Positions 1 through 35,527 of a stretch of DNA of 35,527 nucleotides are shown here, piece after piece; within the stretch, counting starts at the first letter, position 1; the number at the start of each line of letters is the position of its first letter. Below the pieces are notes generated by a model. That model did no database searches. It was not told the origin of the DNA and saw only the letters and a list, made by a program, of their open reading frames with translations. A program made the translations under genes and the position numbers. This DNA comes from a virus (Duplodnaviria; Caudoviricetes): the IMG/VR virus record IMGVR_UViG_3300037991_005327, positions 1 through 35,527 of that record; one strand, 5' to 3'.

Positions 1-1
1 A

Positions 2-181
2 GTTATGGTAGGCCATGATGGTACAAATGCTTATATTACACAATACGGCACACTAGTAAGTGGATCTACTCTAGGCACGTTTACTGCGGCAGTAAATGGA
101 GCAAACGTAGAACTTAAGGTCACAATGGGTTCAGCCACCAGTGCATCTTTGAAAGTTATACGCCAGACAGTAAACGTATAA
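2..181 (+). CDS. 3' end of a virion structural/tail-fibre-like protein (partial)
   Basis: Frame 2 reads VMVGHDGTNAYITQYGTLVSGSTLGTFTAAVNGANVELKVT...VNV* (TAA 179-181). It aligns by eye with the C-terminus of the next gene (VLHDGSNVYMTTYGSL...ADINGGNVRLRLT). Confidence 0.8.
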   Translation, partial: VMVGHDGTNAYITQYGTLVSGSTLGTFTAAVNGANVELKVTMGSATSASLKVIRQTVNV

Positions 182-184
182 ATA
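177..184 (+). promoter_or_regulatory. T4-type late promoter TATAAATA
   Basis: Exact T4 late consensus, overlapping the upstream stop codon and lying 24 nt before ATG 209. Confidence 0.8.
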
Positions 185-208
185 CTTGCACAATAAGAGA
201 GTGTAGGT

Positions 209-2500
209 ATGGCAATTAAAATAGATCACCAGCAAAATCTGTTAAAAACTCAAACCAATGAATTGAAACTAGATATCACCGGTTCGCTGACTTTACCGTC
301 AGGTGCAACTTCGGATAGATCAGGATCACCTAACACAGGTGATATAAGATTCAATACAACTACAACTAGATTTGAAGGCTATACTGGTAGTGCATGGAAA
401 ACATTTACTACCATTATGCAGGATATTGACAAAGATACGTATGTCACTGTTGAAGATAGTGATGGCACAGATAACGATCAAATTGATTTTTTTACTGCTG
501 GATCACAACGTATGGTTATCCATTCAGATGGTAACATAGGTATAAATCAGGCCGCTCCTACAAAACTGTTAGATGTTGGCGGATCTTTTAAAGCAACAGG
601 TGATGCAACACTAGATTCTACTTTGCTGGTAGGTGGTATTGCAGATTTTGATGCAAGAGTTGATATCAATGATGGTACCACAAGTTCTAGTACTTCTACA
701 GGTGCATTGGTTGTATCAGGTGGTGCTGGTATTGGTGGTGCGTTAAACGTTGGTGGAGACATGAACGTTGGTGGTACAGTTACCATGAGTGGTAACTTTC
801 AAGTAAGTGGTACTCAAACACAACTTGTCAGTACATCAATTAACCAAGCACTCATTAAATTAGGCGAAGGCACTACAACACAATCAGTTGACCAAGGGTT
901 TATTGTTACTCGAGGCGATGGCGTATCTACAAACACAAATAACGTGGGTGCCATATATGACGAAAGCGAAGATGAAGTTGCTTTTATTTCATGTCCTACA
1001 GAAGATGGACAAACTTCTGGTAATGTAAACATTGTAGATTATATCAAAGTACACCTAGGTGAATTAGAAGCAGAAGATAATTTAACTGTCAAAGGTATTA
1101 CATCACTCACTGGTAATTTAACATCACAGGGTACAGCAACATTCACTGAAATGACAGTAGGTGATCTAAACAATCAAAAATTTATTATTGCTGGAGCCAG
1201 TGGTAGGCTTACAACTGACAACGCAATATTGTTTGATGGTACCAATGTAAAGTTTGATACAAATGGTGCTTTACAAATACCAGGCGGAAGTACTGCACAA
1301 AGACCAGGAACACCAACTGTTGGTATGATACGTTACAATACCAATGATTTAGAATTTGAAGGTTACATAGGCGGTGCATGGAATAGACTTTCTGCCACTA
1401 ATTTCTTAGAACTAACAGATACACCTGCATCATTTGATCCTGGTAAGTTTTTACGAGTAAACGCAGGAGGTACAGAAGTTGAGTTTGTGGATTCGGCCGC
1501 TGACGTTGTAGATGACCTATCTCCACAGCTAGGTGGTAACCTAGACATGAACGGCAAAGATATTACTGGTAAAGGTAATATCAACATTAACAGTGATGAT
1601 GACACTAATGCAGTTGGCCCTAGCATTACACTTGATAGACAGAGTGCAACACCAAGCGGAGGAGACGGAATTGGTGTTATTAAATTTGATGCTTACAATA
1701 GTGCAGGCACTCCTGCTACAAAAACCTATGCACAAATATATGGATACCTAAGAGATATAACAGCAACCAATGAAGATGGTGCAATTAGAATAAGTGTACT
1801 GAAAGATAGTGTAAACACAATCGTTGCTGAGTTTGACAGAGAAGGTGTACGCATTGGTAAAGATGCAGACCTTATATTTGAAGGTTCCACAGACGACGGA
1901 AATGAAACAAAACTTACAGCCACAGATCCTGGTCAAGACAATACTATAACTTTACCAGATGCATCTGGTACTGTAATGTTAAATGTTGTTGAAGATACAA
2001 CACCACAACTTGGAGGTGCATTAGATTTAAATGACAAAGATATCACAATAGCAACCAATGGTCAAAGTGATATTGGTACAGGATCTAATCAAATTGGCAC
2101 ACTTTATGCACAAAATATTGGTAGCCAAGCCAATCAAGTTGGCACAGTCTTTACTAACAACATCACAATGCACAATGCATATCACAGTCATGCCAGTACA
2201 GCAACCAGTTCATCCACAGCAGAATTTAATGTAGATCAATGGCCCATAGCAACATATAGAAGTGCAAAATATTTTATATCATGTGAAAACACCACAAGTT
2301 CAATATATCAAATCACACAGATACTGGTATTGCATGACGGATCAAATGTATACATGACAACTTATGGTTCATTGTTGAGTGGTGCAAATCAGTTTACAAT
2401 TTCAGCAGATATTAATGGTGGTAATGTAAGATTAAGACTTACTCCTGCCAACACTAATAATATGAATTACAGATTCATTGCTGAGAAACACTTAATCTAA
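209..2500 (+). CDS. Modular tail fibre / virion structural protein (763 aa)
   Basis: G/T/S/D-rich. Carries two 'PxGxTxxRxxxPxxGxIRxNTxxxxFEGYxGxxW' modules and two 'VVxDxxPQLGGxLDxNxKDI' repeats typical of aquatic myovirus fibre proteins. Confidence 0.75.
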   Translation: MAIKIDHQQNLLKTQTNELKLDITGSLTLPSGATSDRSGSPNTGDIRFNTTTTRFEGYTGSAWKTFTTIMQDIDKDTYVTVEDSDGTDNDQIDFFTAGSQRMVIHSDGNIGINQAAPTKLLDVGGSFKATGDATLDSTLLVGGIADFDARVDINDGTTSSSTSTGALVVSGGAGIGGALNVGGDMNVGGTVTMSGNFQVSGTQTQLVSTSINQALIKLGEGTTTQSVDQGFIVTRGDGVSTNTNNVGAIYDESEDEVAFISCPTEDGQTSGNVNIVDYIKVHLGELEAEDNLTVKGITSLTGNLTSQGTATFTEMTVGDLNNQKFIIAGASGRLTTDNAILFDGTNVKFDTNGALQIPGGSTAQRPGTPTVGMIRYNTNDLEFEGYIGGAWNRLSATNFLELTDTPASFDPGKFLRVNAGGTEVEFVDSAADVVDDLSPQLGGNLDMNGKDITGKGNININSDDDTNAVGPSITLDRQSATPSGGDGIGVIKFDAYNSAGTPATKTYAQIYGYLRDITATNEDGAIRISVLKDSVNTIVAEFDREGVRIGKDADLIFEGSTDDGNETKLTATDPGQDNTITLPDASGTVMLNVVEDTTPQLGGALDLNDKDITIATNGQSDIGTGSNQIGTLYAQNIGSQANQVGTVFTNNITMHNAYHSHASTATSSSTAEFNVDQWPIATYRSAKYFISCENTTSSIYQITQILVLHDGSNVYMTTYGSLLSGANQFTISADINGGNVRLRLTPANTNNMNYRFIAEKHLI

Positions 2501-5500: not shown

Positions 5501-6927
5501 TCACAGGTGATGTTACATTCACAGGTGACAACTACAATGTGGTTTGGGACAAATCAGATGATGCAATGGAATGGGGCGATAATGCCAAAGCAACATTTGG
5601 TACTGGTGCTGATTTCACAATTAGACACGATAGTTCAAATGATACCACTTATATGGAAGAATCTGGTGCTGGTAGTTTAATCATGAAAGTTGATGACATG
5701 TATATCCAAAATGCCGCTGGAAATACAAACATTGCAAAATTTGTTGATGGTGGTGGAGTAACTTTATATCATAATAGTAATACTCAAGCATTTGAAACTA
5801 CAACTACCGGTGTATCAATTAAAATGGGCACTGATAAAAATATAGCATTCACAGGTGGTATAGGTGAAATTGGTAGTGTTCCAGGTTTTCAAGGTACCAA
5901 TGACGCCGGTAGTGCATTAACTTCAATTGGTATGCGTGGTACAGATATAAGATTTGCAACTGCCTCCGCTGAAGCAATGAGAGTAGATAGCAATGGTAGA
6001 TTAGGTATTGGTATACAGGCTCCAGACTACCCTTTAAATGTAGCAGGAACTCCTATATCATCTGCAAATGAAAAAGCACTTCTATCACTTTATGATACAG
6101 ATACAGCTTATAATGGTACAAACCCTGGTGGTGGTATTGCTTTTAGATCTCTTTATAATTCTGGTGGTTCTTCTACTGTTAGTACTGCAACTATACAAGG
6201 CATAAAAGAAAACGCTACAGATGGAAATTACGATACTGCATTACGATTCACCACAAGAGCAAATGGTGGAAATTTAACTGAAAAAATGAGAATCGATAGT
6301 GCTGGTAATGTTGGTATTGGTGTAACTCCTACTGCCAAGTTACATATTGAGGTTGCTGATAACACTGAATTTTTAAAAGCAACAATAACAGGAAACGAAG
6401 CATGGGCATTTAAAGGCGCCTCTGGAGCAGGTGCAGTAGACTATGTATCATTTGGTATATCTGGCGGTACACAATGTATGGTATGGCAAGAAGATGGCGC
6501 AGTTGGTATTGGTAATACTGCTCCAACTTGTCCATTGGATGTTACTGGTGAAATACGTGCATCCAATGATGTTACTGCGTTTTATTCATCTGATAGAAAT
6601 TTAAAAGAAAACATAGAAGTTATTGCAGATCCAATTGGAAAAATTACTGCAATGCGTGGTGTAATGTTTGATTGGACCGACGAACATATTCAGTCAAGAG
6701 GTGGAGAAGATGGTTATTTTGTACGTAAACATGACATTGGTGTTATTGCTCAAGAAGTTGAAGAAATACTACCAGAAGTGGTACGTGAAAGAGATGACGG
6801 AACCAAAGCAGTTGACTATCAGAAAATGGTTGCACTACTCATAGAAGGTATGAAAGAACAACAAGAACAAATAAAAGCCTTGACAGAACAGGTAAATTCT
6901 ATTATAACTAATAGTAGCGAGAAATAA
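2560..6927 (+). CDS. Long tail fibre/spike with C-terminal intramolecular chaperone (peptidase S74)
   Basis: C-terminal FYSSDRNLKENI...VMFDW...IGVIAQEVEEILPEVV...VDYQKMVALLIEGMKE plus a coiled coil (from about 6589). 'MRIDSxGNVGIG' repeats. Shares modules with 209..2500. Confidence 0.88.
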   Translation: MATFQHNFKVKNGLTVENSAGNDSEIVLKDASATALVIKEGSTAFLTFDTSNGAEKIAFNKSVDFGGQTITNLPTAFTISDGSNSSAIAGGGTLTVQGTANEVAVAESSGTVTVGLPTNVTITGNLTVNGTTTTVNSTTMTVDDPIMTLGGDTPPGSDDNKDRGVEFRWHDGSNPKVGFFGMDDSDNKFMFIPQASNTSEVMSGSVGGAKFGAVDVTGLTNSALTDNRITIAGASGVLEDDANFTFDGTNMKIATTGSVQIPVGSTAQRPTAVQGQLRYNTDDSSFEGYDGSAWGSLGGVKDGDGDTTILAEDSAGADNDELDFKTAGTVRMTIGATGDITYGDSLNKVTIAAATGNTVIAGTLDVTSAVNLNATTSSTNTTSGALIVDGGVGVAENLNVGGGLTVTGASTLNGNIDIGDANTDTLTITAKVDSSILPDQDGTRELGSASLRWLNTHTDNIKAQGYIDGVDYMDIDTGAGTPGSAAEGRIFYENNFDALAYYTGDQSQIIRIGQNTFQYVYNDTGATIGAGKAVRYSGGLTAGGMKISLSDKSSTDVQHTIGLTFGSIANTGYGYVMIQGLYFNLDTSAFAVGAPLYVDTAGSLTATSPTYPNFSVEVCKTTKQHASTGVVYVDMINNMAASFRTTGNARFDGDVVIGGNLTILGTSASTDVNSLNVEDPYVFLGAGDSIGTVNFSGSGLNDATFHGLFEGTASTTYYVKIDGTGSPDTFSWSKDNFSSTEATGVNITGAEQTLDNGIKVKFNATSGHTSNDTWNGVAAPTNIDLGVVGFRNTGASGVGFTQVGLFFDVTDQKFRIFDEYDPVLTGNVNTADSSFSLGTLVADTMEATTFTGNLVGSASTAAEAQTIHTIQRGAVDAAHYVNIVDSDDSSMAVNQVYTDAGLSYNPSSNNLTVSGQAIATSFQVSGSTGVYFEGATDNTNDTLLTATDPTANNTITLPDSSGTVALTSQLNNFVSDTGGSFTGDVTFTGDNYNVVWDKSDDAMEWGDNAKATFGTGADFTIRHDSSNDTTYMEESGAGSLIMKVDDMYIQNAAGNTNIAKFVDGGGVTLYHNSNTQAFETTTTGVSIKMGTDKNIAFTGGIGEIGSVPGFQGTNDAGSALTSIGMRGTDIRFATASAEAMRVDSNGRLGIGIQAPDYPLNVAGTPISSANEKALLSLYDTDTAYNGTNPGGGIAFRSLYNSGGSSTVSTATIQGIKENATDGNYDTALRFTTRANGGNLTEKMRIDSAGNVGIGVTPTAKLHIEVADNTEFLKATITGNEAWAFKGASGAGAVDYVSFGISGGTQCMVWQEDGAVGIGNTAPTCPLDVTGEIRASNDVTAFYSSDRNLKENIEVIADPIGKITAMRGVMFDWTDEHIQSRGGEDGYFVRKHDIGVIAQEVEEILPEVVRERDDGTKAVDYQKMVALLIEGMKEQQEQIKALTEQVNSIITNSSEK

Positions 6928-6930
6928 ACT

Positions 6931-7140
6931 ATGGCACTACCGGCAACAGGCGCCCAGATATCAATGAGTACAGTTCGTACTTTTTTTAACGGACAATCAG
7001 GCATTCCTGGTTCGAATTCTAATTTGTTATTGAGTGCAACATTTGGTGCATTTATTACACCTAGTGTTACAACAAATACAAAACTCAGTGCTACATTTGG
7101 CGGTTGGCAAAATGGTAATTCCACTGGTGCAAGTCCATAA
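6931..7140 (+). CDS. Small Ser/Thr/Gly-rich protein (69 aa), probably virion/fibre-associated
   Basis: Starts 3 nt after the fibre stop. MALPATGAQISM-type N-terminus; internal LSATFG repeat. Confidence 0.7.
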   Translation: MALPATGAQISMSTVRTFFNGQSGIPGSNSNLLLSATFGAFITPSVTTNTKLSATFGGWQNGNSTGASP

Positions 7141-7205
7141 TAAACATCTCACCCTTGGTGTGTACAGATATATACTAAGAAATGTAAAACCTTAGGAGGT
7201 AAAAC

Positions 7206-7700
7206 ATGGCAGAGAAAAATATCGTAGATACTGCGATTATTCATCGTACAAGATATGAAATAGAAACGTTCGTGTTAGGCGAACATCCGCATCCTGCAAG
7301 ACAGGCACAACTGCTTATCAATGAAATACGTAGAGTACGTGCAGGAGTAGTTATTGAAAGCGGAGAACATGCAAAAGCCGGTTTAGAAGCTGAGCTTAAA
7401 ATTTTAGAAGATATTCTAGCAGATATGAGTCAAAAACATGATGTTCCAGCATTGCTTGAAAACATTGAAACATATGAAGAGCAATATTGGGTAGACAGAC
7501 TTGCCCGAATGGCGGCAATTGATATTTTGACCATTGGCAAAATTCAACCTGATCATATGAATCGTATTGCGGCTCTTAATGATACAGCCTTTGCAAACTG
7601 TGTGAAAACAACTGCAAATCTTGCCAAACTGTTAAATGATGGTGTTGTACAAGCAGAACGCCAACTTTCACAGGACATGGTTCCACAAGATATGATGTAG
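7206..7700 (+). CDS. Hypothetical helical/coiled-coil protein
   Basis: Strong AGGAGG RBS; 164 aa ORF with EEQYWVDRL motif. Confidence 0.8.
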   Translation: MAEKNIVDTAIIHRTRYEIETFVLGEHPHPARQAQLLINEIRRVRAGVVIESGEHAKAGLEAELKILEDILADMSQKHDVPALLENIETYEEQYWVDRLARMAAIDILTIGKIQPDHMNRIAALNDTAFANCVKTTANLAKLLNDGVVQAERQLSQDMVPQDMM

Positions 7701-7707
7701 GTGATAC

Positions 7708-8430
7708 ATGGTAAGTGTACCTTCTACATATGTAAACAATGATGGTTATAGGATTGCAATATGTATTCCTGTAATGGATCAATGCAGTACAATGTTTACT
7801 AGAAGTTTAGCCAATCTTATGCATAAATGCGGACAGGATAGAAAGTCAGTTTCTATTCACATGCAGTATGGCAGTAACGTAACAATGCAGAGAGATGCTC
7901 TTGCAAGAGAGGCACTAGAAACATCAGCTGATTTTTTGATGTGGCTAGACAGCGACATGCATTTTCCTAGTGATACCATTGATAGGTTATTGAACAGGAA
8001 AGCAAAAATTGTTGGAGCTCCTTATACCACAAGAGTAAAACCAATTAGAAGTACTGCATTTAAAAGTGCCATGGACTATGATGCAAGATTGAATAGATCT
8101 GTAGATGGCGGTATTGAAAAAGTTGCGGCCTTAGGGTTTGGTTGTGTGTTAATTCACAGAGAAGTGTTCGAAACAATGAACAAGCAAGATCCTAATGTAA
8201 TGCGTAAATTAGATGTGGTAGATGCAGTCGTACATGATTATTCAGATCCTCCATGGTTCGGTGTTAAATACGATAGTAAGTCTGAGACAATGATGGGCGA
8301 AGACATTTACTTTTTTGAAAAAGCATCTAAGGCCGGATTTCAAGCATATGCAGATTTTGAACTTGCTCAAAGTATTGCACATGTAGGAAGTAAAGTTTAT
8401 ACTTTAAAGGACATCGAAGATGGAAACTGA
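7708..8430 (+). CDS. Glycosyltransferase (GT2-like, GT-A fold)
   Basis: IAICIP N-terminal strand, FLMWLDSDMHFP (DxD), GFGCVLIHREVF, GEDIYFF, late His (AHVG). Confidence 0.85.
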   Translation: MVSVPSTYVNNDGYRIAICIPVMDQCSTMFTRSLANLMHKCGQDRKSVSIHMQYGSNVTMQRDALAREALETSADFLMWLDSDMHFPSDTIDRLLNRKAKIVGAPYTTRVKPIRSTAFKSAMDYDARLNRSVDGGIEKVAALGFGCVLIHREVFETMNKQDPNVMRKLDVVDAVVHDYSDPPWFGVKYDSKSETMMGEDIYFFEKASKAGFQAYADFELAQSIAHVGSKVYTLKDIEDGN

Positions 8431-9544
8431 ACAATTAATGTGGAGACCAAACTGGAACAAACAGTTTGATATAAAACATTTAAAAGAAATTCGCGGAGAA
8501 ACACCGGTATCACCTTGGCAACGAGTACTTGCAAGATGTATTTCTCCTTTTCCAAAACTGTATGTTGAAGACATCAATGACATGGAAACTGTCAATGTTA
8601 TGGCAGAAGGATATGCAAACGAAGTCAGTCACATTTGGGTAATCAATGAAAATTATCCTATTGCTGATGATTTTCCTTGGCATTGGAGACCAGAAGGTAC
8701 AGACACAAATTATGTTTATGAATTTCCTGTAGTCAGTTATAGAAGCAAACGCCCACTAGGTTGGGACGTGGTACGTTTAGTACCTACTAGCGGTAATCCA
8801 AAAAGTGTTATTCGCAGTAGAATTATTGCTGGATATGTTGACTCAGAATTTGATATTTGCTTCATAAGTTATCATGAACCTGAAGCAGACAGAAATTTCC
8901 AAAGACTAGCAGAAAAATATCCGGAAGCTCGGCATATTAGAAACATACGAGGAATTGGAAATGCATACAAAGAAGCTGGAGCAACCAGCCAAAGTGAAAT
9001 GGTATGGATAGTAGACGCAGATGCAGTAATAATGGATCACTTTCGTTTTGATTTTGTGCCTCCTAAAAGCAAACGAAAGAACACAACATATTGCTGGCGT
9101 GCCCGTAATCCTATCAACGGATTGGAATACGGCTTTGGTGCAGTAAAATTATTTCCAAGACAACAGTTGATGAAACTAGGTAACAAAATGCCCGATTTTA
9201 GTACCAGCGTAGCGTTTTTTCAACCAATTGATCAGGTTAGTAATATAACTGCATTTAACAAAGATCCATATCGTACATGGAGATCAGCTTTTAGAGAATG
9301 TGCTAAACTCTCAAGTAACATTATCTCCAACAGTAAAGTTGACGAAAATACTGAACGGTTAGATACTTGGATGAACATCGATAATGGTGCTCGTTTTGGC
9401 AGATACGCATTGCGTGGAGCCAAAGAAGGTGCTGATTATGGAAAGAAACATGCAGGAAGTCCAGACCAACTCGCAATGATCAACGACTTTGATTGGCTTA
9501 AAAAGGAATTTTTACAGTCGATGAAAAAGAAACTAACTGTTTAA
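8420..9544 (+). CDS. Phage glycosyltransferase-like protein (GT-A)
   Basis: DICFISYHEP, WIVDADA (DxD), NPINGLEYGFGAVKLF, WRSAFRECAKL; overlaps the upstream glycosyltransferase. Confidence 0.7.
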   Translation: METEQLMWRPNWNKQFDIKHLKEIRGETPVSPWQRVLARCISPFPKLYVEDINDMETVNVMAEGYANEVSHIWVINENYPIADDFPWHWRPEGTDTNYVYEFPVVSYRSKRPLGWDVVRLVPTSGNPKSVIRSRIIAGYVDSEFDICFISYHEPEADRNFQRLAEKYPEARHIRNIRGIGNAYKEAGATSQSEMVWIVDADAVIMDHFRFDFVPPKSKRKNTTYCWRARNPINGLEYGFGAVKLFPRQQLMKLGNKMPDFSTSVAFFQPIDQVSNITAFNKDPYRTWRSAFRECAKLSSNIISNSKVDENTERLDTWMNIDNGARFGRYALRGAKEGADYGKKHAGSPDQLAMINDFDWLKKEFLQSMKKKLTV

Positions 9545-13173: not shown

Positions 13174-13193
13174 CTATAGATCTCCATATACTG

Positions 13194-27438: not shown

Positions 27439-28446
27439 ATGGCAACATTGGCAGAAATTCGTGCAAAACTATTAGCACAAGAAAATACAGGAGGTTCCAG
27501 ATCCTCAGGTGGAGATAACGCAATATTTCCTTTCTGGAACTTAGCAGAAAATACTTCCGCAACAGTTAGATTTTTAAACGATGGTGATACTACCAACGAT
27601 TTCTTTTGGCGTGAACGTCAAATGATTCGTTTGGATTTCGCTGGCATTAAAGGTCAGGCTGATAGCAAACGAGTTACAGTGAATGTACCTTGTATGGAAA
27701 TGTGGGAACCAGCTGGTTCTTGCCCGGTACTACAAGAAGTACGTGCATGGTTTAAAGACCCAAGTCTTGAGGATATGGGTAGGAAGTATTGGAAAAAACG
27801 TTCTTATATTTTCCAAGGCTTTGTAGTTAACAGTGATCTGCAAGAGGATTCAACACCAGAGAACCCAATTCGAAGGTTTATTATGGGTCCGCAAATCTTT
27901 AATATTATCAAACAGGCATTAATGGATCCGGACTTTCCGGCTCTACCAACAGATGCCAACGAAGGTACTGACTTTAAAATTCACAAAACTACAAAGGGTC
28001 AATATGCTGACTATAGCACAAGTAATTGGTCAAGACGTGAACGTAGTTTAGATCAAAACGAACTAGATGCCATTGAGGCACATGGTTTGCATAATCTAAA
28101 TGATTTCATGCCAGCTCGACCAACTGCTGAGCAAATTGATGGTATCAAACGTATGTTTGAAGCATCAGTTGATGGTCAACTTTATGATCCAGAAGAGTTT
28201 GGACAGTTTTATCGTCCTATGGGAATGCCAGCACCTGCAGGTGCTCCAAAGGCAACTCCTGCTCCTCAACCAGCACCAACACCAGTAGCAGAAACTACAC
28301 CAGCACCGGCTCCTGCACCAGCAGAACCAGTAGCTGAAACACCTGCTCCTGCTCCAACTCCTGAACCAGCAACTGCTGATGCATCAGGTGATAAACCGAG
28401 TGCTCAGGATATCCTAGCAAAAATTAGAGCTCGAAAAAGCGACTAA
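27439..28446 (+). CDS. gp32: Single-stranded DNA-binding protein (gp32-like)
   Basis: ATVRFL, CPV, YWKKRSY, GTDFKIHKT..GQYADYSTSNW; AGGAG RBS; lies upstream of uvsX. Confidence 0.9.
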   Translation: MATLAEIRAKLLAQENTGGSRSSGGDNAIFPFWNLAENTSATVRFLNDGDTTNDFFWRERQMIRLDFAGIKGQADSKRVTVNVPCMEMWEPAGSCPVLQEVRAWFKDPSLEDMGRKYWKKRSYIFQGFVVNSDLQEDSTPENPIRRFIMGPQIFNIIKQALMDPDFPALPTDANEGTDFKIHKTTKGQYADYSTSNWSRRERSLDQNELDAIEAHGLHNLNDFMPARPTAEQIDGIKRMFEASVDGQLYDPEEFGQFYRPMGMPAPAGAPKATPAPQPAPTPVAETTPAPAPAPAEPVAETPAPAPTPEPATADASGDKPSAQDILAKIRARKSD

Positions 28447-28460
28447 TAGAGATAAACAAT

Positions 28461-28489
28461 AGCAAAGGGGCACCAGTCCCTTTGCTTTT
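28461..28489 (+). terminator. Intrinsic terminator after gp32
   Basis: AGCAAAGGGG-caccag-TCCCTTTGCT followed by TTT. Confidence 0.8.
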
Positions 28490-28506
28490 CATTAGAGGAG
28501 AAAACT

Positions 28507-29607
28507 ATGGCAAAACCTTTTGACGTAAGTAAATTCCGCAAGAGTATTACAAAGAGTGTACCTGGACTCAGTAGCGGATTCAGAGATCCTGACACATGGA
28601 TTTCAACAGGTAATTATACACTTAACAAACTAATCAGTGGTGACTTTCATAAAGGTGTTCCACTAGGAAAAGTAACAGTATTCGCTGGAGAATCGGGTGC
28701 TGGCAAAAGTTTTATTTGTTCTGGTAACTTGATTAGAGAAGCACAAAAGCAAGATATTTTTTGTATCTTGATTGATTCAGAAAATGCACTTGATGAAAAA
28801 TGGCTACAAGCATTAAATGTTGATACCAGCGATGACAAGTTATTGAAACTGAATGTAGCAATGATTGATGATGTTGCTAAAGTTATCAGTGATTTTACCA
28901 AAGATTACAAGAGTGAATATGCTGATAAAGATCCTGAAGAGCGACCAAAAGTGTTGTTTGTGATTGACTCATTGGGTATGATGTTGACACCCACAGATGT
29001 TGATCAGTTTACCAAAGGTGATATGAAAGGTGATATGGGTAGAAAACCCAAGGCACTTACTGCACTTGTAAGAAACTGTGTAAACATGTTTGGTGATTAT
29101 AACATTGGATTGGTAGCAACAAACCACACATATGCTTCGCAGGATATGTTTGATCCTGATGATAAAATATCAGGTGGACAAGGCTTTATCTATGCATCAA
29201 GTATTGTTGTTGCAATGCGAAAACTTAAATTAAAAGAAGATTTAGATGGTAATAAAGTAAGCACAGTACAAGGTATCAGAGCCGCCTGTAAGGTTATGAA
29301 AACTCGATTTGCTAAACCTTTTGAAAGTGTGCAAATTAAGATTCCATATGAAACTGGTATGAATCCATACAGTGGTTTTGTTGAGTTATGTGAATCCATT
29401 GGACTTCTTACTAAAACTGGTAATAAATTAGCCTACACAAGTCCTGTAACTGGAGAAGTTCATAGTTATTTCAGAAAACAATGGACAGAAGATAAATTAC
29501 AGTTAATAATGGACGAATGGGGCACAAAAGATTTACCTGAACCTGAATCAAATGAAGAGCCATTACAGGAGATACCAGTAGATGAGATTATCGACGAGCG
29601 AGAGTGA
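28507..29607 (+). CDS. uvsX: RecA-like recombinase UvsX
   Basis: WISTGNYTLN, Walker A GESGAGKS, IDSENA, VIDSLG, NHTY, SGG. Confidence 0.95.
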   Translation: MAKPFDVSKFRKSITKSVPGLSSGFRDPDTWISTGNYTLNKLISGDFHKGVPLGKVTVFAGESGAGKSFICSGNLIREAQKQDIFCILIDSENALDEKWLQALNVDTSDDKLLKLNVAMIDDVAKVISDFTKDYKSEYADKDPEERPKVLFVIDSLGMMLTPTDVDQFTKGDMKGDMGRKPKALTALVRNCVNMFGDYNIGLVATNHTYASQDMFDPDDKISGGQGFIYASSIVVAMRKLKLKEDLDGNKVSTVQGIRAACKVMKTRFAKPFESVQIKIPYETGMNPYSGFVELCESIGLLTKTGNKLAYTSPVTGEVHSYFRKQWTEDKLQLIMDEWGTKDLPEPESNEEPLQEIPVDEIIDERE

Positions 29608-29842
29608 ACTATTAGTTGAAGTTTGGAGTTCACTGAAACAACATATCGAACGTAAAAACAGAAACGATGCCGCGGAAGGTTTTGTACAAACATTACTGAA
29701 TAGCGGATTGGATATGGAAAATGTGTACGAAGAATTTTATGGACTAGATAACTATCTTGATCGTGCATTAAATCTTCATGCAGAGTTCGAGGAAACAGAG
29801 GACGACGAAGAAGAATGGCTCGACGAAGAATTTGATGAGTAG
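29582..29842 (+). CDS. Small acidic hypothetical protein
   Basis: Lies between uvsX and uvsY and overlaps both; AGGAG upstream. Confidence 0.7.
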   Translation: MRLSTSESELLVEVWSSLKQHIERKNRNDAAEGFVQTLLNSGLDMENVYEEFYGLDNYLDRALNLHAEFEETEDDEEEWLDEEFDE

Positions 29843-30293
29843 TTGGTTTAACACACTCACAAAAGATCTAAGCAAGTTACCCGATGCAATAGATTGGTAC
29901 AATACTGAGCTTGATGGTGCTAGACCTGAATGCAGTCTTAAGGGTAATTTAGAACGTAACAGTAGAGAAATTCCAGGTATTGTTGAACACAGATTCAATC
30001 AACTGCAAGAAGTTGAAGCAATTCTGGAGTTTCTCAACATTGAATTACGTAAGTTAAGAAGCAAAAAGTTTCGCAAATACATGGAAAATTACAACAGATC
30101 ATTGAGCAGTAGAGATGCTGAAAAGTTTGCTGATGGTGATTCTGATGTGATTGATCTACAACATCTAGTCAATGAATTTGCACTTGTTCGCAACAAGTAT
30201 ATGGGTCTAATCAAAGCACTAGATGCCAAGCAATTTCAACTTAATAATATCACAAAAATTAGAGCGGCCGGACTAGAAGATGTAACTCTTTAA
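29835..30293 (+). CDS. uvsY: Recombination mediator UvsY
   Basis: Helical; YNRSLSSRDAEKFADGD, KQFQLNNITKIRAAGLED. Start placed at MSSW (29835). Confidence 0.85.
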   Translation: MSSWFNTLTKDLSKLPDAIDWYNTELDGARPECSLKGNLERNSREIPGIVEHRFNQLQEVEAILEFLNIELRKLRSKKFRKYMENYNRSLSSRDAEKFADGDSDVIDLQHLVNEFALVRNKYMGLIKALDAKQFQLNNITKIRAAGLEDVTL

Positions 30294-30301
30294 AAAAGAG
30301 G

Positions 30302-30330
30302 TTGACCATTACACCAAGATGTCTTATACT
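30302..30330 (+). promoter_or_regulatory. Sigma70-type early promoter
   Basis: TTGACC-17 nt-TATACT with an A-tract upstream. Confidence 0.85.
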
Positions 30331-30360
30331 ATATGTATAGTTAGAAAAAAAGAGGTCGTA

Positions 30361-30708
30361 ATGAACAAATATAAACTTTTCCAAATACATCTTACAGATG
30401 CTGAATACAACAAAGTAAATGCTGAAGGGCATGATTCTGTTGAAAAACACATGACAAAATTAGACATGTCATTCAGTGATGATCCAGGTGCTCTTGCCAA
30501 AAAAGCATTTGACAATGCTTGGTACACACATGTATCAAACATAACTGCTGACAGCATTGAAAAAGTGTTTGAAGTTGGCAACATTGGTCCAGAAGAAAAC
30601 ATTGAGCGACTTGCTCCTATGTTCTCTGTTAGTGTTGGTGATGTAGTTGAAGATCCATCAGGCAAACAGTTTGTTTGTGCTAGTTTTGGTTGGAAGGCAG
30701 TTGCTTAA
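30361..30708 (+). CDS. YodL-like domain protein
   Basis: YKLFQI N-terminus, VFEVGN, SVSVGDVV, FVCASFGW; GAGG RBS before ATG 30361. Confidence 0.6.
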   Translation: MNKYKLFQIHLTDAEYNKVNAEGHDSVEKHMTKLDMSFSDDPGALAKKAFDNAWYTHVSNITADSIEKVFEVGNIGPEENIERLAPMFSVSVGDVVEDPSGKQFVCASFGWKAVA

Positions 30709-30891
30709 ATGAAAGTTAAATTTGTCAATAAAGGTTATGGAACCGATGATGGTTTCAAAGAAGTTGAAGTTGTTAAGACAGAACTTTCAGTATTTGGGTG
30801 GCCACAACTTATTATAAAAAATCCATGGTGGACCGGTGATACACTGGTTTGCCAATGGGAAAATAATGAGTGGGTATGCGATTTAGATTAA
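30709..30891 (+). CDS. Small hypothetical early protein
   Basis: Starts immediately after the upstream stop; 60 aa, Trp-rich. Confidence 0.7.
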   Translation: MKVKFVNKGYGTDDGFKEVEVVKTELSVFGWPQLIIKNPWWTGDTLVCQWENNEWVCDLD

Positions 30892-30899
30892 TAAAAAGG

Positions 30900-30931
30900 T
30901 TGACATCTAAAGCAAGATGTCTTACTATAAT
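30900..30931 (+). promoter_or_regulatory. Sigma70-type early promoter
   Basis: TTGACA-17 nt-TACTAT(AAT). Confidence 0.85.
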
Positions 30932-30954
30932 AGTATAACAAAAGAAAGACTATT

Positions 30955-31170
30955 ATGATAGAAACAAAATTAACATTTACATACGTTACACCACTTCAAG
31001 GAAGACGTAAAACTTATACACTTAGAACAGTAGGTCAAACCAAAAAGGCTTCTAAGGAAAAAGTGATGCAAATGTTTATGAAGGAAAAAGGTCCGTTGGG
31101 TATGAAGGACAGAATGGGTTGCATTGACTCAATTAGTTTTAGAAAAGTAAAAGATTGCTGGGATATATAA
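30955..31170 (+). CDS. Small basic hypothetical early protein
   Basis: First ORF after the promoter; 71 aa. Confidence 0.7.
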   Translation: MIETKLTFTYVTPLQGRRKTYTLRTVGQTKKASKEKVMQMFMKEKGPLGMKDRMGCIDSISFRKVKDCWDI

Positions 31171-31344
31171 ATGACAGAGCTATTACAAGATATCAATAAC
31201 TTAGAATTGTTGTTAGAAAAACTAGATCAAGGCGATCAAATACAAGTCTTAGAAGTCGTGCATAAAATGATTTCAGATAAAAGAGCTGAATTTGAAAAAG
31301 CTGAACAACAGATGGAGCAAGAAGCAAATGACGTTTGTGGGTAA
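31171..31344 (+). CDS. Small coiled-coil hypothetical protein (57 aa, not in the ORF track)
   Basis: ATG directly after TAA; reads MTELLQDINNLELLLEKLDQGDQIQVLEVVHKMISDKRAEFEKAEQQMEQEANDVCG*. Confidence 0.75.
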   Translation: MTELLQDINNLELLLEKLDQGDQIQVLEVVHKMISDKRAEFEKAEQQMEQEANDVCG

Positions 31345-32068
31345 ACAAAAACCAACATACAATCTAGAGATTGTTATGCAATATGCGGTTGCAGTAACTG
31401 ACTATCAAGGTTTTATCAGCAGTGGTAATGGTTGGTATGATCATGAAACTGAAAGTCGTCATCATGATAACAAAACTGTTATTGGCTTTATGTTAGATGG
31501 AAATAAAGCCAAAGACCAACATGCGAAAGCCTGTTTGGAACTGATTGAAAATAATTTTACATCAATCAATGATCGTGCAAAAGAAATCATTGAACATTTT
31601 CAGCAGAGTTTGACTTTCAAAAAACTTAGCTCTACTCTTAATGGATTTGAAGAAAGAGTTGCATCATTCATAATGAATGATAAGGTGGACAGGTTTGGCG
31701 TAAGTGTTATTGCTAGTCTGCCAAAAAGTTATGGTGTAGATCAAAAACGTGAAGAGTTTTCAGATCTTATGGCCAAGTACAAACGTACTAGTGAATATGT
31801 GGGTAAAATTAGTAGCCGAGTTTCATTGGATCTTAATGTGATTGATATCAAATATCTACGAAACTTTGGTAACTTTATTGTAACCACAGTATATGATGAT
31901 AAACATATTGTTAAGTTTTTCTGGAACAAAGATCCAGACTTAACCAAAGTAATGGATGGTAAAACTATTAGTATTACCGCTCGTGTTAAAGGACATGAAA
32001 TTAGCAAATACACTAATTGTAAAGAAACAATGTTAAATTATATGAAAATAGAGGAAATAAAAGGTTGA
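31328..32068 (+). CDS. Hypothetical protein, possible C-terminal OB-fold
   Basis: GGAG at 31314-31317 supports ATG 31328. C-terminal beta-rich YVGKI...ISITARVKGH...ETMLNYMKI. Confidence 0.7.
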   Translation: MTFVGKQKPTYNLEIVMQYAVAVTDYQGFISSGNGWYDHETESRHHDNKTVIGFMLDGNKAKDQHAKACLELIENNFTSINDRAKEIIEHFQQSLTFKKLSSTLNGFEERVASFIMNDKVDRFGVSVIASLPKSYGVDQKREEFSDLMAKYKRTSEYVGKISSRVSLDLNVIDIKYLRNFGNFIVTTVYDDKHIVKFFWNKDPDLTKVMDGKTISITARVKGHEISKYTNCKETMLNYMKIEEIKG

Positions 32069-32096
32069 CCTTTTATGCACCCTGTCGTATTATAAT
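32065..32096 (+). promoter_or_regulatory. Sigma70-type early promoter
   Basis: TTGACC-17 nt-TATTAT(AAT). Confidence 0.85.
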
Positions 32097-32133
32097 AGTG
32101 TAGGTAACAAAAACAAGTCAAGGAGTGAGACAC

Positions 32134-32973
32134 ATGGCTACTAAATTAAAAATTTCCAAAAATACAAAAGTAACTGTCAAGAAGGCTGAGAAAGTCGAGA
32201 CAGATGCTCAAGTGATCAAACGTTTACGTGAACGATTTGATATTTTGAATGACATGACACAAGCATCAGTTGATGGTGTTGTACGAGGTATGGTTGTTAC
32301 TGGACCTCCAGGTGTTGGTAAGTCATTTGGTGTTGAGCAGGTGCTTAACGAAAACAGAATGTTTGATAAGATGGCTGGTAAGCGAGATCGTTTCCAAGTT
32401 ATCAAAGGTGCTTCAAGTGCCATTGGTTTGTACAAAGTTCTTTATGAAAACTCAGACAAAGGGTCTGTGTTGGTTATGGATGACTGTGATACAGTATTAC
32501 ATGATGAAACATCATTGAACTTGCTTAAGGCCGCACTTGATAGTGGTGCCAAGAGAATGTTGAGCTGGAACACAGATAGTGCTCTGCTAAGACGTGAAGG
32601 TATTCCTGATAGGTTTGAATTTAAAGGTTCAGTTATCTTTATTACAAACTTGAAGTTCGAAGGTACACGAGGTAAACTTAAAGATCACCTAGATGCTATT
32701 ATGTCCAGGTGTCACTATTTGGATCTTACACTTGATACTATGAGGGACAAGTTCCTAAGGTGTAAGCAGTTGGTTAAAGATGGTATGCTTAATAGCTACA
32801 AGTTCGAAAAGGGGCAGGAAACTGCACTAATGAATTACATGGATGCAAACAAAGAAAACTTGAGAGAAGTTAGTTTGCGAATGGTAACAAAGATTGCTGA
32901 TCTTATGAAGCATCAACCCAAGGGCTGGAAAAGGTACGTTGAGGTTACATGCATGAAGAGAAAGGTCAGCTAA
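32134..32973 (+). CDS. AAA+ ATPase
   Basis: Walker A GPPGVGKS, Walker B LVMDDCD, sensor IFITN, SRC arginine finger; AGGAG RBS supports ATG 32134. Confidence 0.9.
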   Translation: MATKLKISKNTKVTVKKAEKVETDAQVIKRLRERFDILNDMTQASVDGVVRGMVVTGPPGVGKSFGVEQVLNENRMFDKMAGKRDRFQVIKGASSAIGLYKVLYENSDKGSVLVMDDCDTVLHDETSLNLLKAALDSGAKRMLSWNTDSALLRREGIPDRFEFKGSVIFITNLKFEGTRGKLKDHLDAIMSRCHYLDLTLDTMRDKFLRCKQLVKDGMLNSYKFEKGQETALMNYMDANKENLREVSLRMVTKIADLMKHQPKGWKRYVEVTCMKRKVS

Positions 32974-32978
32974 GAGTC

Positions 32979-33054
32979 ACGGTCCAACCTACGCCCTCTC
33001 TCACTCCAATGGACCGTAGAGGAGAAGTCAACAAACGGCTTCTCCTCACCTTTT
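32979..33054 (+). terminator. Tandem hairpins: regulatory stem-loop plus intrinsic terminator
   Basis: ACGGTCCA/TGGACCGT (32979-33017), then GAGGAGAAGTC/GGCTTCTCCTC (33019-33047) followed by accTTTT. Confidence 0.75.
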
Positions 33055-33060
33055 ATGCAG

Positions 33061-33089
33061 TTGACAAAATCCAAAAAATAGGCTATAAT
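33061..33089 (+). promoter_or_regulatory. Perfect-consensus sigma70 promoter for uvsW
   Basis: TTGACA-17 nt-TATAAT. Confidence 0.9.
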
Positions 33090-33096
33090 CATAAAC

Positions 33097-34548
33097 ATGA
33101 AGTGTAAAATTGTACTCAAAGATGAAGTGAATTGCAAGGTAGAAGGACTAGCAACCAGCACTAGAAGAAAGTGTATGGACAAGCTCAAGTTCTTTTTGCC
33201 TTATGCATATCACGTGCCAGCATACAAACTGGGTCGCTGGGATGGTACTGTACAGTTTTTTAGTATGGGTGGTAGCACCTATATAAATTTACTAGACGAA
33301 GTACTGCCTATACTTGAAGCAGATGGTTACGAAATAGAACTGGATGATCACAGACAGCATGTGGACTTTGCCACAGAAGCCGTAGACGAAAACACATATA
33401 CAAATCTAACTTGGCCCAAAGGTCATCCGGTAGAAGGCGAACCCATTGTGCTACGTGACTATCAGGTTGATATTATCAATCAGTTTTTAGATACACCACA
33501 ATGTGTTCAAGAGATAGCCACAGGTGCAGGCAAAACATTAATTACGGCCGCACTCAGTGAACGAGTAGAACAGTATGGTCGTACTGTGGTGATAGTACCC
33601 AACAAAGATTTGGTTCGTCAAACTGCTGAAGACTATGAAAACATGGGATTAGATGTTGGTGTTTACTTTGGTGACAAAAAAGAAATGAACAAAACACACA
33701 CCATATGCACATGGCAGAGTTTGAACACAATGGAAAAACGTTTTAGAGATGGGTTAAGTGAAACCAGTTTAAATGAGTTTTTGCAAGGTGTTGTTTGTGT
33801 TATGGTAGACGAAGTGCATCAAGCAAAAGCAGATGTATTAAAGAAACTGTTAACAGGTCCATTCAGTAATGTGCCATTACGTTGGGGACTAACAGGCACA
33901 ATACCCAAAGAGCAACACGAGTTCTTTGGCATACGTGCTGGACTAGGACAGGTTATTAACAAACTGTCAGCACATGAATTACAAGAAGAAGGCGTACTTG
34001 CAGAATGTAACATTGATGTTATACAGATGCAGGATACAGCCGAATTTCCAAACTATCAAAGTGAGCTTTCATATTTGGTAACTGATCAAAAGAGGCTAAA
34101 TTATATTAGTGGCCTTATAGATGAAATGAGCAAGAATGGTAATACATTGGTGCTTGTTGATCGTATTAAGTGTGGTGACAAACTACAGGAACTGCTACCA
34201 AATGCAACCTTTGTGAAAGGAGCAATGAAAAGTGCAGACAGAAAAGACACATATACAGAAATTAACGAATCTACGAACATGGTTGTTATTGCAACTTATG
34301 GAGTTGCCGCGGTGGGAATCAATATTCCTCGCATTTTTAATCTTGTTCTTATTGAGCCTGGTAAATCTTTTGTAAGAGTTATACAGAGCATAGGTCGTGG
34401 CATACGTAAAGCCAAGGACAAAGACCATATACAAATTTGGGATATAACATCAAGTTGTAAGTTTAGCAAAAGGCATCTTACTCAACGTAAGAAGTTTTAT
34501 AGGGAGGCACATTACCCTTTTTCAGTGCAGAAAGTCGATTACATATGA
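33097..34548 (+). CDS. uvsW: SF2 DNA helicase UvsW
   Basis: WDG, LRDYQ, ATGAGKT, DEVH, GLTGT, QSIGRGIRK, HLTQRKKFY. Confidence 0.93.
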   Translation: MKCKIVLKDEVNCKVEGLATSTRRKCMDKLKFFLPYAYHVPAYKLGRWDGTVQFFSMGGSTYINLLDEVLPILEADGYEIELDDHRQHVDFATEAVDENTYTNLTWPKGHPVEGEPIVLRDYQVDIINQFLDTPQCVQEIATGAGKTLITAALSERVEQYGRTVVIVPNKDLVRQTAEDYENMGLDVGVYFGDKKEMNKTHTICTWQSLNTMEKRFRDGLSETSLNEFLQGVVCVMVDEVHQAKADVLKKLLTGPFSNVPLRWGLTGTIPKEQHEFFGIRAGLGQVINKLSAHELQEEGVLAECNIDVIQMQDTAEFPNYQSELSYLVTDQKRLNYISGLIDEMSKNGNTLVLVDRIKCGDKLQELLPNATFVKGAMKSADRKDTYTEINESTNMVVIATYGVAAVGINIPRIFNLVLIEPGKSFVRVIQSIGRGIRKAKDKDHIQIWDITSSCKFSKRHLTQRKKFYREAHYPFSVQKVDYI

Positions 34549-35045
34549 AAATACTAACCATAGAAAATGAAGGATACGAGCTGGATCATATACCAGAACA
34601 GATAGATGATTTTCGCTATTGTGTTTTAGATTACACAAATCCAGCACAAGCAGATTATATTTTTGTGCCACTTGTGTTTTTAGAAAGTTTTAATGCTCCT
34701 GCAATCACACTCAAAATTGGTGGACACAGTCTAATGATGCCAGTGGATTGGAGCATTGTGATAGCAGATCCAGACATGGGCGATCCAGAAGTAATGCAAC
34801 TCACAAGCATCAATGATAGAGGCTTTACTGCATTTTCAATGAATCCTATGGCAGGTTATATGGCAGAGTATTTGGATATAGAATTTACAGGTGTATTCCA
34901 AGACATGAAATGGTATTTCCCAAAACTTAAATATGGACATATACTAGCAGTACCAGTGGAAGATAAGAAAAAACCTCGTTGTGCTTTCTTTGTGAAAGAT
35001 GCAAACAAGGTTCCTGAGGTACTTGACATAAACAAATTGGTGTAA
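34545..35045 (+). CDS. Hypothetical protein coupled to uvsW
   Basis: ATGA overlap with the uvsW stop; 166 aa. Confidence 0.8.
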   Translation: MKILTIENEGYELDHIPEQIDDFRYCVLDYTNPAQADYIFVPLVFLESFNAPAITLKIGGHSLMMPVDWSIVIADPDMGDPEVMQLTSINDRGFTAFSMNPMAGYMAEYLDIEFTGVFQDMKWYFPKLKYGHILAVPVEDKKKPRCAFFVKDANKVPEVLDINKLV

Positions 35046-35049
35046 TATA

Positions 35050-35283
35050 ATGGATGATATGCAAGAAGAAGATGAACACATTTTAAAGATCTCAATTGAG
35101 ACAATGGATATGTGTACCAAATTTTTAGAAGATGGTGCACCACCCATGGCAATAGCAGGTGTATTAATGGCAACTGCATCACGTATGTATCAAGATGCAC
35201 TATCGCCACATGAATGGGAAATGCTATTGGATTCAGTTAAAGAAACAACCACATGGGGTAAACACAAAGGTACAATGCACTAA
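35050..35283 (+). CDS. Small hypothetical protein
   Basis: 77 aa, tightly packed in the operon. Confidence 0.7.
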   Translation: MDDMQEEDEHILKISIETMDMCTKFLEDGAPPMAIAGVLMATASRMYQDALSPHEWEMLLDSVKETTTWGKHKGTMH

Positions 35284-35527
35284 TGGCAGACATGAGCATA
35301 CAAAATGAAATGAGAGTGCTGGACACCAGAGATACTTCATGGTTTCCAAGTCTTAATGATGAAGAACTTAAAAAGCTCAGTATATTTGTATTGCAACGTT
35401 GGATGAGTGCTTTGCAGAGCAGTGATGTAGGTTTACAAGAACACTATTTAGAATATGTAAATGAATTCAGCAACAGGCACTATAACACAATTCGTCATTA
35501 TCCTGAACTGCAAATACGACTGCTTCA
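35283..35527 (+). CDS. 5' part of a protein, possibly clamp-loader small subunit (gp62-like); runs off the window
   Basis: TAATG overlap; reads MADMSIQNEMRVLD...IFVLQRWMS...EYVNEFSN...HYPELQ. The 'RxxS...NExxN' pattern resembles gp62. Confidence 0.45.
   Translation, partial: MADMSIQNEMRVLDTRDTSWFPSLNDEELKKLSIFVLQRWMSALQSSDVGLQEHYLEYVNEFSNRHYNTIRHYPELQIRLL

What the first reader, a model, noticed from the sequence alone, without database searches (positions are those of the whole stretch)
1..35527. Apparent genome-wide avoidance of GCWGC: Ala-Ala is written GCSGC
Seen: lone alanines are mostly GCA/GCT, as expected in AT-rich DNA. Yet all of the dozens of Ala-Ala pairs I checked use GCC-GCN or GCG-GCN (near 551, 3612, 4012, 10246-10260, 11185, 14133, 14753, 16881, 23904, 24686, 29281, 34305). 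I found no GCAGC/GCTGC by eye, although a rough composition estimate predicts on the order of 20 sites. GATC, GGCC and GCSGC are common. Known: TseI/ApeKI recognise GCWGC and BbvI recognises GCAGC. Inference: strong selection against a host restriction or motif-sensing system, which would fingerprint the host. A phage-encoded nuclease that cuts this motif in host DNA is an alternative.
Basis: partly seen in the sequence, partly recalled or inferred. Interest (0 to 1): 0.8.

Follow-up and report, generated by a model that had tools for sequence, protein, structure and literature searches.

The report
Phage purges only unshielded restriction sites
This piece of an uncultured marine giant phage contains no GCWGC at all and has also lost eight other restriction-type DNA words except where a G is followed by A or G, which likely means it dodges a panel of host DNA-cutting enzymes by recoding only the sites that a predicted guanine modification leaves exposed.

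Summary
GCWGC occurs 0 times against 43-47 expected, and 51 of 51 Ala-Ala pairs start GCC/GCG. The window is about a tenth of a marine PA5oct-like jumbo phage.

GCWGC is one of nine purged palindromes. In 65 kb of this phage's genes, copies without a G-purine step (GA/GG on either strand, in or beside the site) are absent for GCGC (0/28 expected), GCNNGC (0/30), GCN7GC (0/51), AAGCTT, CAATTG, CGCG, CTGCAG and GTGCAC; copies with the step persist. Other GC-GC spacings are normal. Relatives carry a DpdA-like/QueDE/FolE cluster, and one has almost the same panel.

Best reading (0.62): pressure from several host Type II enzymes plus a 7-deazaguanine shield at G-purine steps. The shield does not rescue GCWGC. 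The cluster was not seen in this phage's own 72 kb, and the host is unknown. The 23388 protein has a restriction-nuclease-like motif and is enriched in purged genomes, but it is intact in unpurged ones. This scan's notes report GCWGC purges and G-flank survival on other DNA.

The parts
1..35527 (.). Fragment of a marine PA5oct-like jumbo myophage with no GCWGC, and no GCGC, GCNNGC or GCN7GC lacking a G-purine step
   Evidence: TerL 56% to PA5oct/Paride; held by marine metagenomes of 11 studies, two runs marked as possible source
6416..21329 (.). All seven GCGC sites (6416, 6497, 6950, 19419, 19530, 20514, 21326), each with G directly 5' on one strand
10247..10257 (-). Example Ala run written with GCS codons (three overlapping GCSGC) in the tail-sheath-stabiliser gene 9991-11352
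23388..24431 (+). 347-aa protein of an unnamed, phage-restricted family with invariant E144, D161, E170, K172 (PD-(D/E)XK-like); candidate nuclease, probably not the cause of the purge
24435..25994 (+). Terminase large subunit, used as marker for relatives
16368..20950 (+). Tail sheath, two tail-tube genes and head-closure gene (contractile-tailed phage)
27439..34548 (+). ssDNA-binding protein, UvsX, UvsY, small ORFs, AAA ATPase and UvsW-like helicase (second marker)

Best explanation
GCWGC is absent from this phage and eight other palindromes survive only with a G-purine step, likely because several host Type II restriction enzymes cut its DNA and a predicted 7-deazaguanine-type modification of G in GA/GG steps shields only some copies. 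Shown: zero GCWGC; zero copies of GCGC, GCNNGC, GCN7GC, CGCG, AAGCTT, CAATTG, CTGCAG and GTGCAC without such a step; survival of copies with it; synonymous recoding; loss of about a quarter of Ala-Ala and Ala-x-x-Ala pairs. Inferred: the cutters are orthodox host enzymes; the shield is a DpdA-type guanine exchange acting on the first G of GR, inside the site or one base outside it. GCWGC has no internal GR step and a flanking G does not save it, so every copy had to go. GCSGC always carries GGC on one strand, so the target may be GCWGC (TseI type) or GCNGC with the S half shielded; sequence alone cannot separate these.
For: (1) Codon-shuffle null on 65 kb of this phage's genes, unshielded observed/expected: GCGC 0/28, GCNGC 0/57, GCNNGC 0/30, GCN7GC 0/51, AAGCTT 0/13, CAATTG 0/10, CGCG 0/9, CTGCAG 0/5, GTGCAC 0/5. 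The scan covered all 2+2 and 3+3 palindromes with gaps 0-9 and expectation >=5 and gave 16 hits in the unshielded class and 2 in the shielded class. (2) GC-N3,4,5,6,8,9,10-GC are at expectation; the purged spacings are the ones known as Type II sites (enzyme names recalled). (3) Same rule in relatives: G003 AGCT 123 of 123, GCGC 61 of 61, CATG 647 of 648 survivors carry the step; G057 CATG 275 of 275, CTNAG 274 of 274. (4) GA/GG-containing palindromes such as GATC, GGCC, GANTC, GGNCC, CCNGG are near expectation here. (5) GCWGC-zero travels with GCGC-zero across 126 dereplicated loci: 37 both, 72 neither, 12 and 5 discordant. (6) G003 encodes QueE, QueD, FolE, a preQ0 transporter and a TGT-like protein beside its DNA polymerase; homologues of that protein are in PA5oct and next to the que cluster of Vibrio phage 2.275.O. 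(7) G092 carries a 63%-identical homologue and the same panel, apart from a weaker AAGCTT loss, at different GC content. (8) PA5oct DNA resists enzymes in a way read as a modified G in GA and/or GG (PMC12191111, passages); CAjan DpdA modifies GA and GGC and this blocks EcoRV and HaeIII (PMC7544227, passages). (9) Protein level: AA 98 vs 133 +/- 10, AxxA 95 vs 133 +/- 10, AxA 167 and AxxxA 150.
Against: No dpdA or que gene was seen in this phage's own ~72 kb, so the shield genes are borrowed from relatives. The TGT call is an ESM-Atlas lead only (score 0.94, 17% of that cluster carry PF01702; no Pfam, PHROG or NCBIfam hit). No host, and so no host enzyme, was identified. G-flanked GCWGC is not spared (0 vs 29). 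Shielded copies are also reduced: GCGC 10/40, AAGCTT 1/6, GTGCAC 1/7, CTGCAG 6/17. Some GR-containing sites are depleted: TCGA 59/127 and CCGG 53/89 here; GGCC 111/272 in G003; TGATCA 0/23, AGATCT 1/17, GATC 79/190 in G064. G056 has the DpdA-like gene and no purge. PA5oct (100 kb) shows the rule only for CTGCAG and AGTACT and the reverse for AAGCTT, and 50 kb of Vibrio phage 2.275.O showed no unshielded-class purge. The cross-locus counts are not phylogenetically independent. Few R-M systems and one GCWGC-methylating genome were reported for marine MAGs (PMC8919816, passages), which sits badly with a rich host panel.
Confidence: 0.62

Rival explanations
1. Host Type II panel as above, but the shield at GR/YC steps is another chemistry (methyl, glycosyl or acyl mark on G or on the paired C), or the enzymes' own flank preferences.
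For: No dpdA seen in this phage. Flank rescue at position -1 is more than published deazaguanine data show. Glycosyltransferase-like genes lie in the window (7708-9544; weak hits) and in the G003 cluster.
Against: One GR rule covers many different sites, inside and beside the site, which unrelated flank preferences would hardly give. C5 methyltransferases in 0 of 50 records; N6/N4 type in 11 of 50 (5 over cut-off), none in G001-G003, G014, G057 or G064.
Confidence: 0.15
2. The absolute GCWGC purge is self-protection against the phage's own 23388 nuclease, delivered to cut host DNA, while the other sites reflect host enzymes.
For: Invariant E...GD...ExK motif across 96 aligned members. Best structural rows are HinP1I (Z 3.9, rmsd 5.5, 151 aligned), MspI (3.4), HhaI (3.3) and entry 3ndh (3.2). 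The Atlas' nearest named clusters are HinP1I, SmaI and Eco47II at 0.78-0.80. The near subfamily sits in GCWGC-zero loci 17 of 22 times vs 16 of 55 background. GCWGC alone ignores the flank rule. The G056 copy has a stop codon and normal GCWGC; complete G046 lacks the gene and has only partial loss.
Against: Intact copies sit in unpurged phages: sister G004 (191/178), G005 (299/295), G059 (418/454), G054 (98/187). The distant subfamilies match background (20 of 62). The state flips between close neighbours on the gene tree. In the near subfamily GCWGC-zero coincides with GCGC-zero (13 both, 4 neither, 1 GCGC only). G014 is purged with no copy in the 23% seen. The structural scores are in the range of common arrangements.
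Confidence: 0.12
3. The pressure comes from modification-dependent (Type IIM/IV) enzymes that cut GCGC, GCNGC, GCWGC or GCNNGC once cytosines in the phage DNA are modified.
For: GCNNGC, GCWGC and GCNGC are listed as Type IIM sites (PMC6286503, passage). GpC-specific cytosine modification exists in a marine phage (PMC12783734, passages). Two BisI-family structures (Eco15I, NhoI) appear weakly.
Against: No PF00145 gene in 50 records. It does not explain GCN7GC, CAATTG, CATG, CTNAG or TACGTA purges, nor survival with GR steps.
Confidence: 0.07
4. Codon-pair or mutational bias with no nuclease involved.
For: Most expected GCWGC sites (38 of 45) fall on Ala-Ala pairs.
Against: The loss is strand-symmetric and complete over 307 kb. 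It is limited to spacings 0, 1, 2 and 7. The unpurged sister writes 77 of 89 Ala-Ala pairs with GCW first, while the window uses GCS at all 29 it keeps.
Confidence: 0.02

Closest known systems
Restriction-site avoidance in non-temperate dsDNA phages (Rusinov et al. 2018, PMC6286503; passages seen)
   Same: Complete loss of short palindromes that match orthodox Type II sites, by synonymous recoding, in a lytic-type dsDNA phage.
   Different: Nine sites at once. Loss is conditional on a G-purine step and leaves a protein-level trace (AA, AxxA). The host and its enzymes are unknown.
DpdA 7-deazaguanine DNA modification of phages CAjan (GA, GGC), iggy (GA), 9g, nt-1 (PMC7544227, PMC10484667, PMC6884629; passages seen)
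   Same: Predicted target is the first G of GA/GG; relatives carry FolE, QueD, QueE, a preQ0 transporter and a TGT-like gene.
   Different: Here the motif is read from which sites survive, not from chemistry. It seems to cover GG followed by any base and to act from one base outside the site. The gene was not seen in this phage's own fragment.
Pseudomonas jumbo phage PA5oct/Paride (Wroclawvirus)
   Same: Closest cultured terminase (56%), the same gene order around TerL, a 34% homologue of the TGT-like protein, and DNA reported resistant as if G in GA/GG were modified (PMC12191111).
   Different: PA5oct shows little purge in the 100 kb tested and has no 23388 homologue.
Monomeric Type II endonucleases HinP1I/MspI/HhaI (for the 23388 protein)
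   Same: PD-(D/E)XK-like motif; top weak structural rows.
   Different: Z only 3.3-3.9, no sequence match, no partner methyltransferase, phage-restricted family, often the C-terminal domain of 700-2300-aa proteins.

Membership tests
Restriction-site avoidance | Site count far below composition- and codon-aware expectation | tested here: met
   0 vs 43-47
Restriction-site avoidance | [quoted passage not shown] | tested here: met
   GCWGC = TseI (PMC3643589, abstract start); other matches (HhaI, Cac8I, MwoI, BstUI, HindIII, MfeI, PstI, ApaLI) are recalled; the other GC-GC spacings are normal
Restriction-site avoidance | Host encodes the cognate R-M systems | not testable with these tools
   Host not identified
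DpdA 7-deazaguanine DNA modification | Phage encodes a DpdA/TGT-fold transglycosylase | tested here: inconclusive
   Not in this phage's 72 kb; a TGT-like protein in 12 of 50 related records, mostly fragments; the fold call rests on an Atlas lead
DpdA 7-deazaguanine DNA modification | preQ0 pathway genes (folE, queD, queE, queC) nearby | tested here: inconclusive
   FolE, QueD, QueE and transporter in G003; queC not searched; none seen in this phage's fragment
DpdA 7-deazaguanine DNA modification | Protection follows a GA/GG motif | tested here: met
   Indirect: survivor analysis, with exceptions listed
DpdA 7-deazaguanine DNA modification | Modified base detected in DNA | not testable with these tools
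   Needs LC-MS or nanopore of virion DNA
Type II restriction endonuclease (23388) | PD-(D/E)XK catalytic residues conserved | tested here: met
   E144, D161 and K172 invariant, E170 >=90% in 96 sequences
Type II restriction endonuclease (23388) | Fold match to a solved restriction enzyme | tested here: inconclusive
   Best Z 3.9, rmsd 5.5, 151 aligned; Foldseek E >= 0.75; no PDB sequence hit to a nuclease
Type II restriction endonuclease (23388) | Cognate methyltransferase, or absence of one fixed site in every carrier | tested here: not met
   No C5 methyltransferase in 50 records and no N6/N4 type in G001-G005; intact carriers G054, G058 and G062 listed no near-absent 4-7-mer in the Markov scan
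Type II restriction endonuclease (23388) | Sequence-specific cleavage | not testable with these tools
   Needs an assay

The most novel reading that the evidence does not exclude
The flank-proof, total loss of GCWGC is self-protection against the phage's own weapon: 23388 is a member of a large, undescribed family of virion-delivered restriction-like nucleases of aquatic jumbo phages, swapped between sister phages, that shred host DNA at GCWGC. The phage protects itself by erasing the site rather than methylating it, on top of a deazaguanine shield whose target motif can be read from the genome sequence alone.
Probability: 0.12. Interest if true: 0.85.

Novelty: new variant of a known kind. 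Interest (0 to 1): 0.47.

Why it matters
Site avoidance and deazaguanine shielding are each known. Here they appear to fit together: the genome lost the copies a GA/GG modification would leave bare. If true, the target motif of an unseen DNA modification, its reach one base beyond a site, and the restriction repertoire of an unknown host population can be read from sequence alone. Shared panels (this phage and G092) could then group uncultured phages by host, and each purged word predicts a methylation motif to look for in marine methylomes. It also shows restriction pressure changing protein sequence (Ala-Ala and Ala-x-x-Ala down by a quarter).

Tried and rejected
1) One GCWGC system only: rejected, nine words are purged. 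2) 23388 subfamily determines the purged word (for example TTAA in the sister): rejected, the state is scattered on both trees. 3) A phage methyltransferase shielding unpurged carriers: PF00145 in 0 of 50 records; PF01555 in 11 of 50, mostly unpurged records, specificity unknown, not followed up. 4) More REase-like genes in G003 for its extra words: a crude motif screen of 274 ORFs found none convincing. 5) Whole-protein fold searches gave nothing clear; PDB-sequence and PADLOC scans gave no nuclease family; the absence of a strong fold match does not exclude a family. 6) Cultured or cellular homologues of 23388: none in 50,697 phage records; one MAG contig in the single genome scan, done with subfamily alignment A4 only. 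7) Chloroflexi as host (they methylate GCWGC, TTAA, CGCG): unsupported, no link found. 8) G092 as the missing part of this genome: rejected (GC 0.34 vs 0.38, only paralogue-level matches). 9) Laying public contigs on the window showed strain variation but no route to the rest of the genome. Print searches listed no title or abstract on flank-conditional purging; most papers were seen only as listings, and no supplement was opened (the enzyme table of PMC12191111 may bear on flank effects).
Full report
OBSERVATION. The window holds no GCAGC and no GCTGC. Three nulls expect 42.8 (Markov), 47.4 +/- 6.9 and 45.3 +/- 3.8 (synonymous-codon shuffles of 39 genes, lowest of 1000 = 32). All 51 Ala-Ala pairs start with GCC or GCG, against 123 of 804 Ala codons before other residues. 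On double-stranded DNA a TseI-type site (GCWGC) and a BbvI-type site (GCAGC, recalled) are the same set of places, so they cannot be told apart.

WHAT THE DNA IS. Tail fibres, sheath, tubes, terminase, ssDNA-binding protein, UvsX/Y/W. The closest cultured terminases are PA5oct/Paride (56%), Phosso, Atu_ph07 and Vibrio phage 2.275.O. Two 99.8%-identical records are rated 15-16% complete at 54-59 kb, so the genome is about 360 kb. They add about 37 kb downstream, also without GCWGC. Twenty public runs from 11 studies hold the DNA, nearly all marine metagenomes; two may be its source.

RELATIVES. Among 160 terminase and helicase loci the purge is patchy, and other words are purged instead or as well: TTAA in the 82%-identical sister, also ACGT, GTAC, TGCA and AGCT. 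After dropping loci under 11 kb, dereplicating 90 to 57 and requiring an expectation of 7, 16 of 55 are GCWGC-free. In long records GCWGC is 0/208 (G003, 307 kb), 0/226 (G057), 0/79 (G064), 0/103 (G014), but 967/893 (G056), 418/454 (G059), 191/178 (sister G004) and 486/781 (complete G046).

THE 23388 PROTEIN. It belongs to a family of 271 clusters at 50% identity with no Pfam, PHROG, NCBIfam or PADLOC match for the window's copy, no cultured-phage homologue, and an invariant E...GD...ExK motif. The core model is confident (pLDDT 95.7). Four of the top five structural rows are Type II endonucleases, but only at Z 3.2-3.9; the Atlas' nearest named clusters are also restriction enzymes, at lead-only scores. 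Some members end 700-2300-aa proteins, a few with an amidoligase domain. Virion packaging is an inference from its place among genes whose PA5oct neighbours were found by mass spectrometry. Near homologues lie in GCWGC-free loci 17 of 22 times (loci >=8 kb, dereplicated; Fisher p 0.0002 against background, not independent), distant ones 20 of 62 (p 0.84). The exceptions keep the catalytic residues, include the sister phage, and mostly lack the other purges too. I rank it below the host explanation.

THE WIDER PATTERN. Notes from this scan on other genomes said that surviving sites carry a G-purine step; I tested this. With a codon-shuffle null, copies with no GA/GG step on either strand in or directly beside the site are absent in the window for GCGC (0/12), GCNGC (0/29), GCNNGC (0/13) and GCN7GC (0/22), while spacings 3-6 and 8-10 are normal. 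On 65 kb of coding DNA (window plus extension), a scan of all 2+2 and 3+3 palindromes with gaps of 0-9 gave 16 hits in the unshielded class. These reduce to nine words: GCGC 0/28, GCNGC 0/57, GCNNGC 0/30, GCN7GC 0/51, AAGCTT 0/13, CAATTG 0/10, CGCG 0/9, CTGCAG 0/5, GTGCAC 0/5. Two hits were in the shielded class. Survivors place the step either on the site's own G (CGCG+R, CAATTG+R, CATG+R in relatives) or one base 5' of it (G-GCGC, G-AGCT). In G003, 123 of 123 AGCT, 61 of 61 GCGC and 647 of 648 CATG survivors carry it; these motifs were picked after seeing the purge, so the test is the shuffle expectation, not these ratios. G056 shows none of these purges and G010 only CTGCAG. Across 126 loci, GCWGC-zero and GCGC-zero coincide in 37, are both absent in 72 and disagree in 17. 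Ala-Ala (98 vs 133) and Ala-x-x-Ala (95 vs 133), the pairs that make GCNGC and GCN7GC, are reduced, while Ala-x-Ala and Ala-x-x-x-Ala are not. Where the unpurged sister has Ala-Ala (77 of 89 GCW-first), the window has GCS at all 29 pairs it keeps.

THE LIKELY SHIELD. G003 encodes QueE, QueD, FolE, a preQ0 transporter, a glycosyltransferase-like protein and a 487-aa protein with a TGT-like Atlas neighbour beside its DNA polymerase. That protein has homologues in 12 of 50 related records, in PA5oct and in Vibrio phage 2.275.O, where it lies two genes before the que cluster. G092 carries it and shows the window's panel (GCWGC 0/61, GCGC 0/23, GCNNGC 0/20, GCN7GC 0/63; AGCT, CATG, TACGTA and CTNAG kept; AAGCTT 6/27), though it is a different phage. 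In print, from passages read: CAjan DpdA modifies G in GA and GGC, which blocks EcoRV and HaeIII (PMC7544227); iggy uses GA only (PMC10484667); dpdA loss removes resistance (PMC6884629); PA5oct DNA resists five enzymes as if G in GA and/or GG were modified (PMC12191111); PA5oct has a deazaguanine system (PMC7824862).

AGAINST. The cluster was not seen in this phage's 72 kb. G-flanked GCWGC is not spared (0/29). Shielded copies of several words are still reduced, and some GR-containing words are depleted here (TCGA 59/127, CCGG 53/89) and in G003 and G064. G056 has the gene and no purge. PA5oct follows the rule for two words and reverses it for AAGCTT. No host was found; GCWGC methylation is reported for Chloroflexi in a lake and for one marine genome (PMC6329791, passages; PMC8919816, passages and section 16), and that marine study found few R-M systems.

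VERDICT. The feature is real and stronger than described. It is restriction-site avoidance of a known kind (PMC6286503, passages), in a variant where the purge fills the gaps of a likely base modification. Confidence 0.62, interest 0.47.

Noticed in passing
L003/L004/L171-L173, G004: The closest sister phage (82% TerL) has purged TTAA (13/114) and CGCG (8/53) instead of GCWGC, and carries a 49%-identical 23388 copy from another branch of the gene tree at the same position: host switch and gene swap between sisters are both possible.
   Followed up: partly
L186, L310, L345, L358, L377 and proteins P0037, P0066, P0075, P0096: The 23388 domain is the C-terminal part of 900-2300-aa proteins, some with an Amidoligase_2 domain, resembling polyvalent injected proteins.
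   Followed up: partly
G056:195066-196055: The 23388-family gene has an in-frame TAA in a 302-kb record with no purge at all, although that record has the TGT-like gene.
   Followed up: partly
L029, L037, L043, L045, L058, L059: A subgroup lacks GGCC as well as GCWGC while keeping GCSGC, so GG does not shield every enzyme's site.
   Followed up: no
G010, G059, G060, G067, G073 (L541-L545): N6/N4 methyltransferase genes over the Pfam cut-off occur only in records without the GCWGC purge where I counted it; specificity unknown.
   Followed up: no
window 14520-15218: 232-aa protein with an HExxH motif and an N-terminal M-R-x-x-E-L start like that of 23388; possible virion-borne metallopeptidase.
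   Followed up: no
window 7708-9544: Two glycosyltransferase-like genes and a NUDIX hydrolase (9533-10009) between tail-fibre and neck genes; weak family hits.
   Followed up: no
window about 22412-22583: Asp/Lys low-complexity repeat in the 224-aa gene 21987-22661; contigs break there.
   Followed up: no
L259, L273, L274 (G003): Long arrays of radical-SAM-like and sugar-modifying genes, judged from N-terminal sequence only; IscU-like and UvdE genes nearby.
   Followed up: no
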